Positions 28,513-50,406 of a stretch of DNA of 64,000 nt are shown piece by piece. Position numbers and translations under genes: made by a program. This DNA comes from Candidatus Colwellbacteria bacterium. GTDB taxonomy: Bacteria; Patescibacteriota; Minisyncoccia; UBA6257; Colwellbacteraceae. The notes beneath the pieces are model-generated. The model saw only the letters and a program-made list of their open reading frames with translations. It made no database searches and was not told the DNA's origin. Within the stretch, counting starts at the first letter, position 1, and every line of letters starts with the position of its first letter. The DNA lies in the NCBI GenBank assembly GCA_016176505.1, contig JACOXB010000008.1:984-64983 (forward strand), given 5' to 3'.

Positions 28513-28764
28513 ATGGAAGAAAAACCAATTGGCGAAGTCACCCACTATTACTCTCACCTAGGGGTGGCGATTGTTAAGTTCAACCGGAAAGTGAAAACAG
28601 GTGAGACGGTTCACTTTAAAGGAGCCACCACTGATTTTACCCAAGCCATTGATTCAATGGAGTTTGATCACAAATCAGTTGGCGATGCTAAGTCCGGTCA
28701 AGAGGTCGGGATTAAAGTGGGCGACAAAGTGAGGGAGGGTGACGAAGTTTACGCGGTGGTATAA
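28513..28764 (+). CDS. Small beta-barrel protein (EF-Tu domain-2-like); hypothetical
   Basis: The ATG at 28513 is 1 nt after the LOG stop. The 83-aa product MEEKPIGEVTHYYSHLGVAIVKF...VGIKVGDKVREGDEVYAVV looks like a translation-factor beta-barrel. Confidence 0.5.
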   Translation: MEEKPIGEVTHYYSHLGVAIVKFNRKVKTGETVHFKGATTDFTQAIDSMEFDHKSVGDAKSGQEVGIKVGDKVREGDEVYAVV

Positions 28765-29895
28765 GGAGATAATTCTGCCAACCGGGCTCTTGGCCTCGAT
28801 GATTATTGGGGCCGGGATGTTTGCCCTGCCTTATGTTTTTCTGAAGGCCGGTTTTTTACTCGGCCTTTTTTACTTGGCTGTTTTTGCGGCTGTATTTTCG
28901 GCGATTCACTTAATGTATTTGCGGGTTATTAATGAAACCGAAGGCCGACATCGGTTTGTTGGTTATGCCCGAATTTACTTGGGGGATTTTGGCTTTTGGC
29001 TCGCGGTTTTAACAACCGTTATTGGTTTAACGCTTGTCCTCGTGGCTTACTTGATTCTGGGAGTCGATTTTTTGAAAATAGCTATTCCCTCGCTTTCAAG
29101 CTCTCTGGCTCTTTATCTTTTCTGGTTTACTGGGGTCGCCGCTGTTGTTTTTTCCCTGAAGCGTTTGGCGAACTTCGAGTTCTTAGTTGCGGTGGCTATG
29201 GTGGCTATTATTTTGATTCTTTTTGGTTTCAGTTTAAAAGCGCCTTCATTAACTTTGTCTCGATTTAATCCCACGGATTTTTTCCTGCCTTATGGCGTAG
29301 TTCTTTTCTCTTTGGCTGGTCGAGCTGCTATTTCTTCTTTGCGCGATTATTGGCAGGGGAGGGCGTTGCCGAAAAAAGGACTCCGGCGAGCAGTGGTTTT
29401 AGGGACGCTTATTCCAGCTCTCGCCTCCGGCGAGCAGTGGTTTTAGGGACGCTTATTCCAGCTCTCGCCTATCTTCTTTTTGTGATTGCCGTGATAGCTC
29501 TCTCGCCAACTGGCCCTACACCTGATGCGATTACCGGATTAAACTTCATTCCGCCGCCGCTTCTTATCCTAGTCGGCGTCCTCGGGGTTTTCAGTCTTTG
29601 GACTTCTTATTTTTTCCTAGGGACTGAGGTTAAAGATATTTTAATTTATGACCTTCGCTTGCCCGGATTTTTTGCTTTTATGCTCGCGAGTTTCGTGCCC
29701 CTGATTTTATTTTTCTTTGGTCTTAATAATTTCATTGGCCTTGTTGGCTTTATCGGCGGCGTTTTTCTGGCGCTCGAAAGCATTATGGTGGTTTTGATGT
29801 ATTTAAAGCTTCGCCATAAATCCGTTCTTTTATACTTGCCCCTGATTCTTGTTTTTCTCCTCGGCGCTCTTTATGAAATCTGGCGCTTCTTCTAA
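28739..29895 (+). pseudogene. Amino-acid permease (Mtr/TnaB/APC-like), split by a frameshifting 44-bp tandem duplication
   Basis: ORFs 28739..29446 and 29350..29895 overlap in different frames. Both read RRAVVLGTLIPALA across the duplicated 44-mer. Removing one copy restores one ~370-aa polytopic permease (IGAGMFALPYVF...). Confidence 0.6.
29382..29469 (+). repeat. Perfect 44-bp direct tandem duplication (2 copies)
   Basis: TCCGGCGAGCAGTGGTTTTAGGGACGCTTATTCCAGCTCTCGCC occurs at 29382-29425 and 29426-29469. Confidence 0.85.
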
Positions 29896-29969: not shown

Positions 29970-30071
29970 ATTCAGCTAAATACTAAGCAGGTTCCTCCCT
30001 CTTCGTCAAAATCTCGATTTTGTGACGAAGAGCAGTCCGCCGCAGGCGGAGATTCCTCTCGAGGGCGCAGC

Positions 30072-30101
30072 TTGACACTATTACATTGTTAGTGTTATAG
30101 A
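30072..30101 (+). promoter_or_regulatory. Sigma-70-like promoter: TTGACA, 17/18-nt spacer, TG-extended TTATAGA
   Basis: cTTGACActattacattgttagTGTTATAGa lies about 80 nt upstream of the GC-rich ORF at 30179. Confidence 0.35.
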
Positions 30102-30178
30102 ACTAGTATTACCAAAGCGGTAATCTGTTCGCGGAGGCGAAGCCCCGCAACAGCCCGAACCTCGAAAGGAGGCTTGCG

Positions 30179-30769
30179 ATGCGTCGCGTTACTCAGAAAT
30201 ACTTCCGGGAACTCCTAAGGGAGAAGCTCGGTCGGCAGTGGGCTCGCGCATTTCGTGTCTTCCGGAACTACGGCAAGAATCTGGGATGGGATGTGACGAA
30301 CGTCCTACTCCAGGCAGTGGACAAAGGCAAGGTAGGAGAGGTGCTCACGATCCTCGAGGAGCACTACGAGGACCACCTTCAGTACCAGCACCCAGACGTC
30401 CGCGGTCTCGTGGCTGGCGACCTCGGCGTGAACCTCACTCAGAGGATGTTCGTCGACATCTGCGAGAAGGTGCTCGAGCTCCAGCCAGATGATGGCAGCC
30501 GCGCACCCGCGGATCTGGCTACGCTGACGAAGGCGGATTCACCGATGCGCTTCCAGACCCAGACTTCGATCTACGAGATCGTGAGAGGGGTGGGGGGATT
30601 CGTCCTCCGCAAGCTCGAGGCCTCCGCTCCGAGCAAGATCCAGCCAGGAGACGGCCCGTTCCAAGGCGACAAGGTAGTGATCACCCAGAGTCGTCAGCTG
30701 GTGCTCTACGACGATGGCTACGTCGTGATGAACACGAGCCCGATCGCGAAGATCCTGACCAGGGTGTGA
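30179..30769 (+). CDS. Hypothetical protein encoded by a GC-rich (foreign-looking) cassette
   Basis: 196 aa with strong GC3 bias (GAG/CTC/GGC/CGC codons) against a ~45% GC background. A GAAAGGAGG ribosome-binding site sits 6 nt before the ATG. The stop is TGA, followed by a terminator. It lies ~200 bp from tRNA-Arg. Confidence 0.6.
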   Translation: MRRVTQKYFRELLREKLGRQWARAFRVFRNYGKNLGWDVTNVLLQAVDKGKVGEVLTILEEHYEDHLQYQHPDVRGLVAGDLGVNLTQRMFVDICEKVLELQPDDGSRAPADLATLTKADSPMRFQTQTSIYEIVRGVGGFVLRKLEASAPSKIQPGDGPFQGDKVVITQSRQLVLYDDGYVVMNTSPIAKILTRV

Positions 30770-30774
30770 CACCG

Positions 30775-30811
30775 GACCCGTGAGAAGATCCTCACGGGTC
30801 TTCTCATTTTT
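30775..30811 (+). terminator. Rho-independent terminator of the GC-rich cassette
   Basis: GACCCGTGAG-aagatc-CTCACGGGTC (10-bp stem) followed by TTCTCATTTTT. Confidence 0.6.
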
Positions 30812-32559: not shown

Positions 32560-32906
32560 CCTTGGCGGTGCTTTATCTTGCGGGTCGCTTCAGTTATCGA
32601 TTCGTGGCCTTCTTTCGCCACTGGTACTTGGATAGCCTCCGGGTAATGGCTGAGTTTTGGAACCGGCTCCTGCGGCGGCTTGATCAAACCCTAGCTCTCA
32701 GGGTGACTTTGCGCCACTTTTTCCAGCCGCTTTATCAAGACCGAAGCTTCATCGGTTATGTTTTTGGTTTCGGCTTTCGGAGCGCCCGGGTTTTTATTGC
32801 TTCTATTATTTATTTTCTGATCGTTGTTATTGCCGTTTCAATTTACCTTTTCTGGGCGGCTTTGCCGGCTTATGCAGTGTTTAATCTAATGCTCGAACTA
32901 ATTTAG
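32556..32906 (+). CDS. Hypothetical small membrane protein
   Basis: 116 aa with a hydrophobic C-terminal helix, in a 4-nt overlap chain between kefB-like and the Clp ATPase gene. Confidence 0.35.
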   Translation: MTLAVLYLAGRFSYRFVAFFRHWYLDSLRVMAEFWNRLLRRLDQTLALRVTLRHFFQPLYQDRSFIGYVFGFGFRSARVFIASIIYFLIVVIAVSIYLFWAALPAYAVFNLMLELI

Positions 32907-35398
32907 TGATGCCAAAAAACGAAACTCAATTTATTTTTGAAGAACCCCTTTTCGAACTTGGTTATGCCGGCCGGCTTTTGGTGCGGGTTGTCTCAATCAC
33001 TTGGCTTGTGGTTTTAATCGTGGCCACGCTTATTTTTCTGCTTTCAGATATTGGCTGGCTTTTTTGGCTCGGAGTCTTATTACTTTTCTATCTTATTGAT
33101 CGGTTTTTTCACTTGGGTGCGGCTGATGTTTCATTTCTTGAGGCCGGTTCAAAAAGTTCTAACCTAGCTCATTATCTTACGCCCAAAACCAAGCGGACTT
33201 TGATTTCGGTTTTTGACCACACTCGGCTCGTGGGCGGCGATTTTTCTATTAATCTTCTTAAGGTTTTACTCGGGGCGGGTAAAGTTAAGGAAGTTTTACT
33301 TCGACTCGAGGTGCCGCAGGCCGAGCTTGAGTCTAAACTCGAGGCTTATACCGAGCGGTTAAAAAAACATAAATTTCCAGTTCCGGCTTTGCTTTCCCAA
33401 ATTGAAAACTTGATTCTCCTCGCCGGCTTAAATCGCAGTCCTCATCAGCATTCTATCGAAACAATTGATCTTTTCGTCTCTCTCGGATCGAGCGAATCAG
33501 CGGAGGTTAACTCTCTTTTTAATCTCTTCAATATTAAAGAAGGCGAGCTTGCTCGGGCAGCTGTTTTTGGTCGGCTCCATGAGCAAAGGCTAATCCATCT
33601 TCCCGGCAAGGCTTTTCGTAAAATTCTTTCTGCTTATCGCCGGCCGCGGCACCGGATTATGAACCGGGCCTGGACCGCCCTGCCAACGCCGCTCTTAGAT
33701 CAATTCGCCACTGATTTAACCGATGCTGCCCGTTCGTATAAAGTCGGGTTTCTTATTGGCCACGACAAAGAGCTAGCGCGTCTTATTGATGTCCTTTCCC
33801 GGCCTGATAATCCTAACGCGATTTTGATTGGTGACCCTGGTTCGGGCAAGGAGACTGTTGTTGAACACCTCGCCTATTTAATTACCAAAGACCGAGTGCC
33901 TTCCGAACTTTTTGATAAGCGCCTCGTGGCCTTGCGCTTGGGAAGTTTATTTGCCGGCGCTGATCAGGCTGAAATCCAAAATCGGGTTGAGCGAGTTTTC
34001 GGAGAGATAATAAGGTCCGGGAACATTATTCTCTATTTGCCAGAGATTGATAACTTAGCGAGAAGCGCGCCTAAGGGACAGGCTACAATCGCGAGCCTTT
34101 TATTGCCGCTCATTGCTAATAATATCTTCCCGATTATCGGCACAGCTTTTCCTAGAGAGTACAAACTTTACATTGAGCCAGATACTTTTTTCACTGAGGC
34201 TTTTGAGCTTGTCCGAGTGGAGGAGGTGAGTCCCGAGGAAGCCGAGCTCATCCTTACTTATCGGAGCTATTTGCTCGAAGAAACCCATAAAGTCAGGACT
34301 ACTTACGGCGCGATTAAGAAATCGGTCGAACTCGCCCAAAAGTATTTTCGGGAAAAACTTTTGCCAGCCTCGGCTGACGATCTGCTTAAAGAAGCTGCCA
34401 CTTCGGTTAAGAATCGGGGCGAGAGAACTGTGACGAGCGACGATGTGATCAAAGTGGCCGAATCCCGGGTTAATGTGCCGATTCGCGAAGTTGAGGCAGG
34501 CGAGGCCGAGCGTTTATTAAACCTCGAAGCCTTGATTCACGAACGCCTGATTAACCAAGAAGAGGCGGTAAAAGCGGTGGCGGATTCTCTCCGGGCTTAT
34601 CGGAGCGGGCTTACACGAGCTGGCGGACCAATCGGCGCTTTTCTTTTTGTCGGCCCAACCGGCGTGGGCAAAACTGAGCTTGCGAAAACCCTGGCGAGGA
34701 TTCAATTTGGTCAAGAAGAAGCCATGATCAGGTTTGATATGTCTGAATTCCAGGATGCTCAAAGTCTTTATCGCTTTATTGGTGCGCCTGATGGTGAAAC
34801 TCGGGGGAGGCTCACCGAGGCGGTGCTCGAAAAACCTTTTAGCCTGATACTCTTAGATGAATTTGAAAAAGCCCATCCGGATATTTGGAATGTTTTTCTC
34901 CAGGTTTTTGATGATGGCCGCTTAACTGATAATCTCGGCCGAGTAGTTAATTTTGAAAATACGATTATTATCGCCACTTCGAATGCTCATTCAGATGTGA
35001 TTCACTCTTCTTTAAGAAAAGGCGAGTCAATGGAAAGCATTAGCGAATACTTAAAGCAGATTTTGGTTGATGTTTTCCGACCCGAACTTTTAAATCGCTT
35101 CAGCGATATTATTGTTTTCCGGAATTTAGAACCGGTCCATCTTCGAGAGATTGTGAAGCTTCAGCTAAAAGAACTTGGTCGTCTCTTAGATGAGACTCAA
35201 GGAATTAAACTTGAATACACTGATGCCGCAGTCGAACTTTTGGCACGGCTCGGTTACGAACCAGCTTTCGGTGCCAGGCCTTTGCGTCGGGTGATTGAGG
35301 ATAAGATAAAAGCTCCGCTCTCAGAAAAAATCATTGCTCGCGGTTCACTGATTAAACTCGACGTCGTCGGCAGCGCCTTCGTCATCACCCCTCAATAG
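32906..35398 (+). CDS. Clp/Hsp100-family AAA+ ATPase with two NBDs and N-terminal transmembrane helices
   Basis: 830 aa with two N-terminal TM helices. NBD1 has an atypical Walker A, GDPGSGKE (Lys followed by Glu). NBD2 is canonical, VGPTGVGKTELAKTLA, with the sensor-2 GARPLRR. Confidence 0.8.
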   Translation: MMPKNETQFIFEEPLFELGYAGRLLVRVVSITWLVVLIVATLIFLLSDIGWLFWLGVLLLFYLIDRFFHLGAADVSFLEAGSKSSNLAHYLTPKTKRTLISVFDHTRLVGGDFSINLLKVLLGAGKVKEVLLRLEVPQAELESKLEAYTERLKKHKFPVPALLSQIENLILLAGLNRSPHQHSIETIDLFVSLGSSESAEVNSLFNLFNIKEGELARAAVFGRLHEQRLIHLPGKAFRKILSAYRRPRHRIMNRAWTALPTPLLDQFATDLTDAARSYKVGFLIGHDKELARLIDVLSRPDNPNAILIGDPGSGKETVVEHLAYLITKDRVPSELFDKRLVALRLGSLFAGADQAEIQNRVERVFGEIIRSGNIILYLPEIDNLARSAPKGQATIASLLLPLIANNIFPIIGTAFPREYKLYIEPDTFFTEAFELVRVEEVSPEEAELILTYRSYLLEETHKVRTTYGAIKKSVELAQKYFREKLLPASADDLLKEAATSVKNRGERTVTSDDVIKVAESRVNVPIREVEAGEAERLLNLEALIHERLINQEEAVKAVADSLRAYRSGLTRAGGPIGAFLFVGPTGVGKTELAKTLARIQFGQEEAMIRFDMSEFQDAQSLYRFIGAPDGETRGRLTEAVLEKPFSLILLDEFEKAHPDIWNVFLQVFDDGRLTDNLGRVVNFENTIIIATSNAHSDVIHSSLRKGESMESISEYLKQILVDVFRPELLNRFSDIIVFRNLEPVHLREIVKLQLKELGRLLDETQGIKLEYTDAAVELLARLGYEPAFGARPLRRVIEDKIKAPLSEKIIARGSLIKLDVVGSAFVITPQ

Positions 35399-35460
35399 AC
35401 AACTAAAGCTTTTTAACGATCGTCAGAAAGCTTTAGTTGGGGTAGAGGGCTAGAAATAGG

Positions 35461-35489
35461 TTGACAATGGCTTGACCGCGAGTTATAAT
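35461..35489 (+). promoter_or_regulatory. Perfect consensus sigma-70 promoter: TTGACA, 17-nt spacer, TATAAT
   Basis: TTGACA at 35461-66, 17-nt spacer, TATAAT at 35484-89. It points into GC-rich cassette 2. Confidence 0.5.
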
Positions 35490-35629
35490 TGTTGCGTAAA
35501 TTGTACCTTGAGAAAGTGGGCACTTGTGATTTAAAGAGGTCTTCACGCCCTAGCTTCTAAATTCTAGATTCTGGGAATTAAGGCGTGGAGACCTCACTAG
35601 GAGGTTTCCGAAACAGAAAGGAGCTGACC

Positions 35630-36166
35630 ATGTCGGATGACATGCTCGGCAAGGGCGCTCTGGCCGCGGTGGCCGGACCGCTCAAGGATTTCGCCGAGAG
35701 GCTCGCCGGATCAGACGGTCCGGAGTGACTCTCCGCTTTCAAGCGGTTCCTCCGCAAGGAGGAGGCGTGGGGTGCCATCCCCAACTTCTCCCGCGACATG
35801 AGAGAGGAGGGTTGGGAGCTCGTCGAGAGCATCGACGAGGAACCTGCCCCGGTCTCCAGGCTTGAGCTCGTCTCCTTCCTTAGGCGTGGCGAGAGCTACG
35901 TCTCGGGCGAGACGATGCGCGAGCGAGTCAGGGAGGAAGGGGCCAGCCTGGGCCAGCGCCAAGCTGAGTACCTACGCGTGCACCAGGAAGAGATCCCGTC
36001 CGAGTGGCGGGAATTCTACCTGGTTCTCCCAGGTACGGTCTGGCGTGACCGGGACGGCGACCTGTACGTTCCGTACCTCTACTGGCACGGCGGCAGGTGG
36101 TACATGCTCTTCCACCGGCTCGAGCGCGACTGGTACTCCAACGGCCGGCTCGTCAGTCGCAAGTAG
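35630..36166 (+). CDS. Hypothetical protein of GC-rich cassette 2, with an in-frame TGA at 35726-35728
   Basis: An AAAGGAG ribosome-binding site sits 6 nt before the ATG at 35630. A 32-codon ORF (MSDDMLGKGALAAVAGPLKDFAERLAGSDGPE) ends at the TGA and the same frame continues. High GC3 persists without a break through the TGA into ORF 35798..36166 (MREEGWELVESI...). The short alternative is a stand-alone 35798..36166. Confidence 0.4.
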
Positions 36167-36197
36167 CTTGCCCCTTGGACCCTTGGCCCTTGGGTCG

Positions 36198-36240
36198 GCC
36201 CTCGCGCGGTCAGTACGACGCGCGAGGGCTTCTAATTTTT
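36198..36240 (+). terminator. Rho-independent terminator of GC-rich cassette 2
   Basis: GCCCTCGCGCG-gtcagtacga-CGCGCGAGGGC (11-bp stem) followed by TTCTAATTTTT. Confidence 0.6.
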
Positions 36241-36256
36241 CTGGTCTATAATTACT

Positions 36257-50095: not shown

Positions 50096-50172
50096 AAGAG
50101 AAAGTTTAAGCGAACAAGAAGACGGACGCTAGTGGACGTCCGTCTCCTTCGAAACTTACTTAGCCGATTCCA

Positions 50173-50388
50173 CTAAACGCCAGCTGGCGGCGGGGGAGGA
50201 GTCGGTGGACCAACTGGCCCGCCTGGACTCGGCGAGGCTGGCGGTGCCGGAGCCGGAGGTTCAGAGGCTGGAGGTCCAGCCGGAGCCTCTGGTCCTGGTC
50301 CGCTCATTGGCTGCATTGGTACGCCGCATGTCGGGCAATTACCCGGTTCACTCGCGACATGACCACACTGAGGACATTTATATTCCAT
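50173..50388 (-). CDS. Zinc-ribbon protein with a Pro/Ala/Gly-rich tail
   Basis: MEYKCPQCGHVASEPGNCPTCG followed by a P-rich low-complexity tail. Its GC richness comes from Pro, Ala and Gly codons. Confidence 0.45.
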   Translation of the reverse strand: MEYKCPQCGHVASEPGNCPTCGVPMQPMSGPGPEAPAGPPASEPPAPAPPASPSPGGPVGPPTPPPPPAGV

Positions 50389-50406
50389 CGTAGTAAATAA
50401 TTGACC

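What the first reader, a model, noticed from the sequence alone, without database searches (positions are those of the whole stretch)
35461..36240. GC-rich cassette 2: consensus promoter, 5'-UTR hairpin, and a gene whose reading frame runs through an in-frame TGA
A textbook sigma-70 promoter (TTGACA, 17-nt spacer, TATAAT; 35461-35489) is followed by a 14-bp-stem hairpin (GAGGTCTTCACGCC...GGCGTGGAGACCTC, 35537-35594) that ends immediately before the ribosome-binding site. From the ATG at 35630 a GC3-rich frame runs 32 codons to a TGA (35726-35728) in a leaky UGA-C context. It then continues with unbroken GC3 bias for another 146 codons to a TAG at 36166 (a Trp/Tyr/Arg-rich C-terminus, ...YLYWHGGRWYMLFHRLERDWY...). 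A small CCGCTT-tca-AAGCGG hairpin starts 5 nt after the TGA. This is either a read-through or recoded gene, a freshly inactivated horizontally transferred gene, or a leader peptide plus a downstream ORF that restarts at MREEGW with no ribosome-binding site of its own. It is the second in-frame TGA in the window.
Basis: seen in the sequence. Interest (0 to 1): 0.7.

Follow-up and report, generated by a model that had tools for sequence, protein, structure and literature searches.

The report
Freshly broken swappable gene in CPR
A small gene of a groundwater CPR (Candidate Phyla Radiation) bacterium has a stop codon where every relative, including an otherwise identical strain, has tryptophan; this is a very recent knock-out inside a short recombination patch, not a recoding, though the gene belongs to a very large, unstudied family of mix-and-match proteins.

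Summary
A conserved TTGACA-17-TATAAT promoter, a structured 5' UTR, a strong ribosome-binding site, one GC3-rich 178-codon frame (35630-36166) with an in-frame TGA at codon 33, 3'-UTR repeats and a terminator are all present.

It is one gene. More than 60 homologues have Trp at the TGA position (one has Cys, none a stop). A syntenic orthologue at 80% identity has TGG.

A 2-kb contig from a sister sequencing run is identical to the window apart from two indels and 18 mismatches. All 18 fall in one 49-nt tract (35690-35738) that contains the TGA; that contig reads TGG and encodes an intact 178-aa protein.

So the TGA is a strain-level TGG-to-TGA nonsense codon inside a gene-conversion-like patch. 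It is a fresh null or hypomorphic allele, not programmed read-through or an alternative code. The host uses TGA as an ordinary stop.

The gene family is more interesting than the stop codon. It has thousands of CPR-only members with no Pfam annotation. Members are GC-rich single-gene units combining interchangeable N-terminal helical modules with C-terminal domains that weakly resemble the C-type-lectin fold. At this same chromosomal site, one strain carries a different C-domain.

The parts
35461..35489 (+). sigma-70-type promoter, TTGACA-17 nt-TATAAT
   Evidence: It is a 12/12 consensus match. It is identical in L078 and L003 and conserved in L001 and L077, while the flanking intergenic DNA diverges.
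35522..35529 (+). leader motif ACTTGTGA (family consensus TACTTGCGR), complementary to the end of the coding sequence at 36155-36164
   Evidence: The motif sits just upstream of the long hairpin in window cassettes 2 and 3 and in L001, L005, L010 and L040. It pairs over 8-12 bp, including G-U pairs, with the CGCAAGTA(stop) region. Only about 5 cases are independent, so its function is unproven.
35536..35595 (+). 5'-UTR hairpin (14-bp outer stem plus inner pairs)
   Evidence: See the fold. L001 preserves the stem through two G-U changes and has a different loop. Other family loci have a hairpin at the same place with unrelated stem sequences. There is no Rfam family match.
35599..35604 (+). upstream SD-like AGGAGG with no start codon (possible standby site)
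   Evidence: Seen directly in the sequence. It is conserved in L001, L077 and L043.
35617..35632 (+). ribosome-binding region AAAGGAGCTGACC + ATG
   Evidence: The sequence AAGGAG-n-CTGACC-ATG is conserved at the nucleotide level in about 30 of 39 family loci from different CPR lineages.
35630..35725 (+). codons 1-32 of the N-terminal helical-hairpin module (here called N1)
   Evidence: It aligns with the N1 module of P0002, P0008 and P0013-P0033. In the AlphaFold model the helices are at residues 8-26 and 30-45.
35690..35738 (+). 49-nt recombination (gene-conversion-like) patch containing the TGA
   Evidence: All 18 mismatches between the window and the otherwise identical 2,021-nt contig L078 fall in this tract. 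The L078 tract is identical to L001's. Seven of the 18 changes are synonymous, and the patch peptide is closer to the N1 consensus than L078's is.
35726..35728 (+). in-frame TGA at codon 33 (TGG, Trp, in relatives)
   Evidence: L001, L077 and L078 have TGG here. This column is an invariant Trp in alignment A3. Of 39 genomic loci, 38 have Trp and 1 has Cys; all 29 metagenomic loci have TGG. The TGA is also present in an independent Logan assembly, L003.
35729..36163 (+). codons 34-178: the rest of N1, a linker, and the type-A C-terminal domain
   Evidence: P0292 is 100% identical from residue 47 to the end. A profile search found 354 family hits. The AlphaFold model has pLDDT of about 94-98 in this domain.
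35798..36166 (+). ORF annotated in GenBank (MBI2010890.1, 122 aa) starting at the internal ATG of the conserved 'RDM' motif
   Evidence: There is no Shine-Dalgarno sequence in the 20 nt upstream. C-domain-only homologues start at this position elsewhere.
36164..36166 (+). TAG stop codon
36171..36194 (+). 3'-UTR repeats, CCCTTGG three times
   Evidence: They are conserved in L001, L077 and L002. Similar degenerate repeats of about 7-8 nt (CCYTTGG / CCTTAG) lie between the stop codon and the terminator in many family loci.
36197..36240 (+). intrinsic terminator (11-12-bp GC stem followed by a T-run)
   Evidence: Fold z = -3.6, with 0 of 200 shuffles as stable. It is conserved in L001, with changes in the loop.

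Best explanation
Window 35461-36240 is one monocistronic transcription unit: promoter, 140-nt structured leader, strong Shine-Dalgarno sequence, a 178-codon ORF, a 3' UTR with repeats, and a terminator.

It encodes a two-module protein. The N-terminal part is a helical hairpin (here called N1). The C-terminal part is an alpha/beta domain of about 130 aa.

In this strain codon 33, an invariant Trp at the start of helix 2, reads TGA instead of TGG. The change lies inside a 49-nt tract that differs at 18 positions from an otherwise identical strain. The tract looks imported from another N1-type gene by gene conversion between the two most conserved DNA stretches of the module (those encoding AGPLKD and FKRFLRKEE).

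Ribosomes should therefore terminate after 32 codons. The allele is a very recent null or strong hypomorph.

**Shown:**
- It is a single gene.
- The ancestral codon is Trp.
- An intact allele exists in a near-identical strain.
- The substitutions are clustered in one tract.
- The host uses TGA as an ordinary stop.

**Inferred:**
- The direction of the conversion.
- Whether the TGA came with the donor tract or arose just afterwards.
- That termination is efficient. Any near-cognate reading of UGA-C by tRNA-Trp would regenerate the wild-type protein at a low level.
For: **One gene with Trp at the stop position.**
- P0002 (178 aa) is 72% identical over 98% of the read-through product.
- Every N1-bearing homologue has W at the TGA column.
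- The syntenic locus L001 (ClpB-like gene, cassette, PolX) has TGG.
- Of 39 GTDB loci, 38 have Trp and 1 has Cys, with no stop.
- A TGR pattern scan of metagenome contigs gave 29 TGG and 0 TGA.

**An intact allele in a near-identical strain.**
- The 90%-identity cluster of the annotated 122-aa ORF holds P0292, an intact 178-aa protein identical to the window product from residue 47 onward.
- Its contig L078 matches window 34857-36895. The only differences are two indels and 18 mismatches, and all 18 lie within 35690-35738.

**The TGA is not a one-off assembly error.** It is reproduced in a second assembly, L003.

**TGA is a normal stop here.**
- 10 of 35 long ORFs end in TGA.
- GC-rich cassette 1 ends in TGA followed directly by its terminator.
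- No suppressor tRNA is present in the window.

**No decay downstream of the TGA.**
- The C-domain has 10 window-specific versus 11 P0002-specific amino-acid changes.
- dN/dS against L001 is 0.45.
Against: - No reads were available, so allele frequency and the physical linkage of the 18 SNPs are unverified.
- Both assemblies that carry the TGA may derive from the same read set.
- The donor of the patch was not found. The best match among fetched loci is 36 of 51 nt.
- The polarity of the conversion rests on L078 being identical to L001 in the tract. That could instead mean the L078 tract was itself converted, i.e. a repair.
- The downstream frame is perfectly intact, and UGA-C is a weak termination context in E. 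coli (my own knowledge, not tested here). Some functional read-through therefore cannot be excluded.
Confidence: 0.75

Rival explanations
1. Functional, tolerated or regulated UGA read-through. tRNA-Trp decodes UGA-C often enough that the gene still works, and the stop acts as an expression throttle.
For: - The ancestral residue is Trp, which is exactly what near-cognate decoding of UGA would insert.
- The base after the stop is C.
- The downstream frame and all near-invariant residues are intact, with no excess of substitutions.
Against: - There are 0 TGA codons among about 68 independent N1 loci.
- The near-identical strain has TGG.
- The hairpin after the stop is weak and not conserved.
- An intact downstream frame is expected anyway if the mutation is only as old as a strain difference. 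A 65%-GC frame also rarely acquires stops by chance; other frames here have ORFs of 129-139 aa.
Confidence: 0.07
2. Split expression. The 32-aa N-terminal fragment is a by-product, and the C-domain is made on its own from ATG 35798, as annotated in GenBank, by re-initiation or SD-independent initiation.
For: - Natural C-domain-only homologues begin at or next to this conserved Met with unrelated upstream DNA: P0081, P0095 and P0124, the last with its own Shine-Dalgarno sequence.
- 7 of the 120 best hits lack an N-module.
- In the model, the C-domain is a compact, confidently predicted unit starting near residue 52-56.
Against: - There is no Shine-Dalgarno sequence in the GC-rich 20 nt upstream of 35798.
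- The ATG lies 70 nt downstream of the TGA, which is far for re-initiation.
- A strong internal SD-like AAGGAGGAGG at 35756-35765 points instead to an out-of-frame GTG at 35767.
- The orthologues are single ORFs.
Confidence: 0.1
3. Assembly artefact. The 49-nt tract, TGA included, belongs to a paralogous or co-occurring N1 gene and was threaded into this locus where de Bruijn paths merge. Alternatively, the A is a consensus error.
For: - The tract is bounded by the most conserved N1 DNA: 60 nt upstream and about 30 nt downstream are shared between alleles.
- Logan contigs are built with short k-mers (my own knowledge).
- The same MAG contig carries a 30-bp tandem duplication in PolX and a 12-nt indel in the ClpB-like gene that other assemblies lack.
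Against: - Two different assemblies give the identical tract.
- Even if the tract were misplaced, a TGA-bearing N1 tract would still have to exist in the reads.
- The patch has 7 synonymous changes and an N1-like peptide, which is the signature of a real homologous sequence and not of error.
Confidence: 0.08

Closest known systems
Ordinary nonsense (TGG to TGA) alleles or young pseudogenes; leaky UGA nonsense codons read by tRNA-Trp
   Same: It is a single G-to-A change in a conserved Trp codon. An intact allele exists in a sister strain. There are no secondary lesions. Read-through would restore the wild-type residue.
   Different: The mutation sits inside an 18-substitution, 49-nt recombination tract and is not an isolated point change.
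Gene-conversion-driven variable loci (Neisseria pilE/pilS, Borrelia vlsE); comparison from my own knowledge
   Same: It is a fixed expression site with conserved flanks and replaceable internal segments. L077 and L001 show a C-domain swap at the same chromosomal site. L078 and the window differ by a short patch. In those systems conversions occasionally create non-functional 'off' variants.
   Different: No silent promoterless donor array was seen in this window. The donors may be other expressed paralogues or other genomes. The proteins have no signal peptide and are not known surface antigens.
Variable proteins of diversity-generating retroelements (DGRs) with a C-type-lectin (CLec) fold (Mtd, TvpA), abundant in CPR (abstracts of PMC8144416 and PMC11661182, listed)
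Polymorphic toxin or effector families with a conserved N-terminal module and variable C-termini
   Same: N and C modules combine freely. N1 occurs on at least 6 different C-domains, and the type-A C-domain occurs behind at least 12 different N-modules.
   Different: The units are monocistronic with their own terminator and have no immunity gene. There is no recognisable toxin, secretion or PADLOC domain.
Selenocysteine or alternative-code UGA recoding (genetic codes 4 and 25)
   Same: There is an in-frame UGA in a coding frame, in a CPR bacterium.
   Different: Homologues have Trp, not Cys or Sec. There is no SECIS-like element. The host uses UGA as a stop. The case is singular.

Membership tests
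Selenoprotein gene (SECIS-directed UGA) | Homologues carry Cys or Sec at the UGA position | tested here: not met
   Homologues have Trp at this position in more than 60 cases, with one Cys in L032.
Selenoprotein gene (SECIS-directed UGA) | Conserved SECIS hairpin shortly downstream of the UGA | tested here: not met
   Only a 5-bp/4-nt hairpin is present, with z = -1.2, and it is absent in the orthologue L001.
Selenoprotein gene (SECIS-directed UGA) | selA/selB/selC (tRNA-Sec) in the genome | not testable with these tools
   There is no tRNA-Sec among the 3 RNA genes of the window. The rest of the genome was not available.
UGA-sense genetic code (code 4 Trp, code 25 Gly) | UGA is not used as a terminator by host genes | tested here: not met
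   10 of 35 ORFs of at least 200 codons end in TGA. Cassette 1 ends in TGA followed 5 nt later by its terminator.
UGA-sense genetic code (code 4 Trp, code 25 Gly) | Recurrent in-frame UGA at conserved Trp or Gly positions across genes | tested here: not met
   The dense ORF map is consistent with translation table 11. This is the only convincing in-frame TGA found.
Recent nonsense allele or pseudogene | One-base difference from a sense codon conserved in orthologues | tested here: met
   L001, L077 and L078 have TGG; the window and L003 have TGA.
Recent nonsense allele or pseudogene | Intact allele in a near-identical strain | tested here: met
   L078 has 0 mismatches outside the 49-nt tract over about 2 kb.
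Recent nonsense allele or pseudogene | Further degenerative changes (frameshifts, extra stops, excess non-synonymous changes) | tested here: not met
   None were found. The relative-rate count is 10 versus 11 changes. This is consistent with a very young lesion.
CPR 'N-module + CLec-like C-domain' cassette family (unnamed, no Pfam) | N1 motif: ML-G..LA.VAGPLKDF.EKL.G..G..W..AFKRFLRKE | tested here: met
   Alignment A3 has 19 invariant columns, and the window matches all of them except W33.
CPR 'N-module + CLec-like C-domain' cassette family (unnamed, no Pfam) | Type-A C-domain | tested here: met
   The profile hit to P0001 has E = 1e-55. The window deviates at only 2 near-invariant columns (A99V, F132L), fewer than the intact orthologue does.
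CPR 'N-module + CLec-like C-domain' cassette family (unnamed, no Pfam) | Stand-alone unit: own promoter, AAGGAGnCTGACC-ATG ribosome-binding site, own terminator, and GC content above the flanks | tested here: met
   The ORF has higher GC than its flanks in 28 of 31 loci.
DGR variable protein | C-type-lectin/FGE-like fold | tested here: inconclusive
DGR variable protein | Nearby template repeat matching the 3' end of the gene, plus a reverse transcriptase | tested here: not met
   blastn of each cassette against the 64-kb window finds only self-matches. The reverse-transcriptase gene was not specifically searched for, and remote elements elsewhere in the genome are untestable.
Polymorphic toxin system | Recognisable toxin domain and an adjacent immunity gene | tested here: not met
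   There are no Pfam, NCBIfam or PADLOC hits. The terminator is followed directly by the PolX gene.
Integron gene cassette | Promoterless ORF followed by an attC site, in an array next to intI | tested here: not met
   The unit has its own consensus promoter and terminator. It is flanked by housekeeping genes (ClpB-like, PolX) and no array is present.
Gene-conversion antigenic-variation locus | Expression site with conserved arms and replaceable interior | tested here: met
   L077 versus L001 shows a C-domain swap between the end of N1 and the RK-stop/3' UTR. L078 versus the window shows the 49-nt patch.
Gene-conversion antigenic-variation locus | Silent donor cassettes in the same genome | not testable with these tools
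   None are present in this window. The rest of the MAG was not available.

The most novel reading that the evidence does not exclude
The locus may be one 'expression site' of a CPR-wide, recombination-driven diversification system for small binding proteins with a C-type-lectin-like fold.

On this reading, the conserved promoter, leader and N-module on one side, and the 'RK-stop + CCCTTGG repeats + terminator' on the other, act as homology arms. C-domains are swapped and N-modules are patched between paralogues and genomes. That would keep the family about 10 GC points above its hosts. The TGA allele would be an 'off' variant produced by such a conversion.

Three nucleotide-level features hint at shared post-transcriptional control of the whole family: the conserved TACTTGCG leader motif that pairs with the stop-codon region, the invariant CTGACC spacer in the ribosome-binding site, and the 3'-UTR heptad-like repeats.
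Probability: 0.33. Interest if true: 0.7.

Novelty: new variant of a known kind. Interest (0 to 1): 0.4.

Why it matters
The stop codon itself is ordinary. It shows that an apparent recoding signal in a CPR genome is a strain-level nonsense allele. It also shows that the GenBank annotation (a 122-aa ORF) is the stump of a 178-aa gene.

What matters more is the family the analysis exposed:
- It has about 7,000 clusters at 50% identity.
- Every named source is CPR/Patescibacteria or an evident mis-binning.
- It has no Pfam, NCBIfam, PADLOC or Rfam annotation.
- Its members are modular proteins encoded in self-contained GC-rich units.
- There is direct strain-level evidence for domain replacement and patch conversion at one chromosomal site.

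CPR bacteria are obligate episymbionts whose host-interaction and defence repertoires are largely unknown. A large, fast-shuffling set of lectin-fold binding proteins is a plausible and testable candidate for such functions.

Tried and rejected
- **Protein family libraries.** Pfam, NCBIfam, PHROGs and PADLOC scans of the cassette proteins and relatives gave nothing usable. The best was phrog_24427, E = 9e-4, unknown function.
- **Rfam.** At gathering thresholds and at permissive E-values only microRNA-like noise matched the hairpin.
- **Viral contigs.** No relative of the N1 module was found.
- **PDB by sequence profile.** Only spurious summed hits to designed 'Pizza' propellers and Kelch proteins appeared.
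- **Structure libraries.** The AFDB Foldseek library was unavailable. Foldseek against the PDB was not significant.
- **DGR idea.** Rejected for this window because there is no template-like repeat.
- **Cassettes 1 and 3 versus the type-A profile (hhalign).** Not significant: E = 0.2, though colinear over 97 columns, for cassette 3; nothing for cassette 1. Cassette 3 is linked to the family only through shared modules.
- **5' UTR paired with the stop-codon region.** A general RNAduplex test was not better than shuffles. Own-locus versus cross-locus complementarity was 9.4 versus 8.5 bp, so the 5'-3' pairing remains an anecdote from about 5 loci.
- **Donor of the 49-nt patch.** Not found among 78 loci.
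- **32-aa truncated product.** Not on record as a called gene anywhere.
- **Literature.** Searches found nothing on this family.

Full report
**1. What is in the sequence**

The window is a gene-dense, roughly 46%-GC genome fragment read correctly by translation table 11. The annotated product of the region (P0001 = MBI2010890.1) comes from a Candidatus Colwellbacteria MAG.

Region 35461-36240 lies between a ClpB-like AAA+ gene (32906-35398) and a PolX gene (36257-38008). It is a 65%-GC island.

The stated features are present (details in the observation check):
- a 12/12 sigma-70 consensus promoter at 35461-35489;
- a long hairpin at 35536-35595;
- a Shine-Dalgarno sequence, AAAGGAG, 6 nt before ATG 35630;
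- 32 codons, then TGA at 35726-35728, then 145 more codons, then TAG at 36164-36166;
- three CCCTTGG repeats and a strong terminator at 36197-36240.

GC3 stays at 0.76 / 0.91 / 0.84 in one frame across the TGA. Neighbouring host genes have GC3 of 0.41-0.58.

**2. It is one gene, and the TGA replaces an invariant Trp**

A database search with the read-through product found P0002 (178 aa, 72% identity, 98% coverage) and many proteins that share only the first ~48 residues.

In every one of them the TGA column is W, in the motif ..G..W[LF].AFKRFLRKE. It is one of 19 invariant columns of the N-module alignment.

P0002's contig L001 is syntenic with the window (ClpB-like gene, cassette, PolX; about 80% nucleotide identity) and reads TGG.

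Counts at this codon in independent loci:
- 39 loci in GTDB genomes: 38 Trp, 1 Cys, no stop;
- 29 metagenome contigs found with a pattern that allows TGG or TGA: all TGG.

The TGA is therefore unique to this strain.

**3. It is very recent and sits in a recombination patch**

The 90%-identity cluster of the annotated 122-aa ORF contains P0292, an intact 178-aa protein identical to the window's product from residue 47 to the end.

Its contig L078 (Logan assembly of SRR12113420, 2,021 nt) aligns to window 34857-36895 with these differences only:
- a 12-nt indel in the ClpB-like gene;
- the absence of a 30-nt duplication in PolX;
- 18 mismatches, all within 35690-35738.

That tract includes TGG in L078 and TGA in the window.

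Seven of the 18 changes are synonymous third-position changes. The resulting peptide (DFAERLAGSDGPE*LSAF) fits the N-module consensus better than L078's does. The tract therefore derives from a genuine homologous gene and not from random damage.

The tract is bounded by the two most conserved DNA stretches of the module. L078's tract is identical to L001's, so I take the window's version as derived. The reverse polarity, repair of an older TGA allele, is not excluded.

A second assembly of the TGA allele (L003, SRR12113430) is identical to the window apart from the PolX duplication.

There is no sign of decay downstream:
- 10 window-specific versus 11 P0002-specific amino-acid changes in the C-domain;
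- dN/dS against L001 of 0.45.

**4. Recoding is not supported**

- The host ends 10 of 35 long ORFs in TGA.
- The sister GC-rich cassette 1 ends in TGA followed by its terminator.
- The window has no suppressor tRNA.
- The hairpin after the TGA is 5 bp, no better than shuffles, and absent from the orthologue.
- Homologues have Trp, not Cys or Sec.

Residual near-cognate decoding by tRNA-Trp would recreate the wild-type protein. I cannot measure it.

Re-initiation at ATG 35798 lacks a Shine-Dalgarno sequence. Even so, a few homologues are naturally C-domain-only and start at that conserved Met.

**5. What the gene is**

No Pfam, NCBIfam, PHROG or PADLOC family applies.

A profile of the C-domain retrieves 354 proteins. 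All are 'hypothetical', all named sources are Patescibacteria, and most are 170-195 aa.

An exhaustive HMM search with the N1 + type-B alignment finds 6,987 representative clusters at E <= 1e-3.

The architecture is combinatorial:
- the type-A C-domain follows at least a dozen unrelated N-modules of about 50 aa;
- the N1 module precedes at least six different C-domains.

AlphaFold2 gives a confident model: pLDDT 91, an N-terminal helical hairpin with W33 at the start of helix 2, and a compact alpha/beta C-domain.

**6. The locus behaves as a replaceable cassette**

Contig L077 (protein P0013) has the same ClpB-like 3' end, promoter, leader and N1 module as L001. Its C-domain is unrelated. Homology resumes at the last ~4 codons, the stop codon and the CCCTTGG 3' UTR.

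Family ORFs average 55% GC against 46% for their flanks. The ORF is higher in 28 of 31 loci, and ORF GC correlates only weakly with host GC (r = 0.38). This is what a horizontally circulating gene pool would give. In the window the excess is mainly at third codon positions.

Window cassette 3 (40027-40880) shares its N-module with proteins that carry the type-A domain (49% identity, E = 2e-18). It shares part of its C-domain with an N1-bearing protein (E = 6e-7). Its leader resembles that of cassette 2.

**7. Conserved non-coding features (unexplained)**

- AAGGAG-n-CTGACC-ATG is kept at the nucleotide level in about 30 of 39 loci.
- A TACTTGCGR motif followed by a long hairpin recurs with three unrelated stem sequences.
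- That motif is the reverse complement of the CGCAAGTA(stop) end of the gene, giving 8-12 bp of potential 5'-3' pairing including G-U pairs. The statistics are weak.
- Degenerate CCYTTGG / CCTTAG repeats fill many 3' UTRs in the family.

**8. Verdict**

The stop codon is ordinary. The gene family and its cassette-like evolution are the part worth further work.

Noticed in passing
window 36359-36418: There is a 30-bp perfect tandem duplication (CAAACTATTGCCGACCTCGAAGAGGATATA, twice). It adds 10 aa (QTIADLEEDI) to the N-terminal HHH domain of PolX. It is absent from both Logan assemblies of the same organism (L003, L078), so it is either a polymorphism or an assembly artefact.
   Followed up: partly
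window ~35340/35341 (ClpB-like gene, 3' part): L078 has 12 extra in-frame bases (ACAGCTTCAGCG) here relative to the window. This is the only other difference in 2 kb.
   Followed up: no
window 30070-30810 and 40027-40880: Two more GC-rich (60-61%, GC3 0.71-0.78) single-gene units have the same layout: TTGACA promoter, structured leader, GAAAGGAGG ribosome-binding site, an ORF of about 200 aa, and a terminator. One sits next to tRNA-Arg(CCG) and the other just upstream of smpB and tmRNA. Cassette 3 is linked to cassette 2's family through shared modules. Cassette 1 has no detectable relation.
   Followed up: partly
L077 versus L001 (same chromosomal site as window 35400-36240): In closely related strains the C-terminal domain is replaced by an unrelated one. 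The promoter, leader, N1 module, last ~4 codons and 3' UTR are kept.
   Followed up: yes
window 35522-35529 and 36155-36164; also cassette 3 at 40082-40090 and its stop-codon region near 40800-40810; L001, L005, L010: The leader motif TACTTGCGR is the reverse complement of the conserved gene end CGCAAGTA(G/A). This allows 8-12 bp of pairing between the 5' UTR and the stop-codon region. The mismatches fall as G-U pairs on the sense strand.
   Followed up: partly
window 36171-36194; 3' UTRs of L002, L007, L011, L016, L021, L048, L065 and others: Runs of degenerate 7-8-nt repeats (CCCTTGG / CCTTTGG / CCCTTAG) lie between the stop codon and the terminator in many family members. This suggests a binding platform for a multimeric RNA-binding protein.
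   Followed up: partly
ribosome-binding sites of about 30 of 39 GTDB loci (e.g. window 35618-35632): The spacer between the Shine-Dalgarno sequence and the start codon is conserved as CTGACC at the nucleotide level across CPR lineages. Synonymous sites in the adjacent codons are diverged, so this points to a constraint beyond coding.
   Followed up: no
L036 (Taylorbacteria) 292-484; L043 (P0007 locus): These are other broken family copies. L036 has an in-frame TAG after codon 64 with 157 further open codons. L043 has a frameshift inside a different N-module, so only the C-domain is called as a gene.
   Followed up: partly
window 28739-29895: A Trp/Tyr-permease-like gene appears split. Region 28739-29446 matches profile positions 7-227 of 393. 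An overlapping ORF in another frame (29350-29895) probably carries the rest, although it has no Pfam hit.
   Followed up: partly
window 50106-50390, minus strand: Another short GC-rich island (65%) encodes a small Cys-rich (CPxC...CPxC) protein with a Pro-rich tail, wedged between two longer genes.
   Followed up: no
P0144, P0145, P0150, P0157: Some family members are 360-480 aa and match the type-B C-domain profile twice, so they carry tandem C-domains.
   Followed up: no
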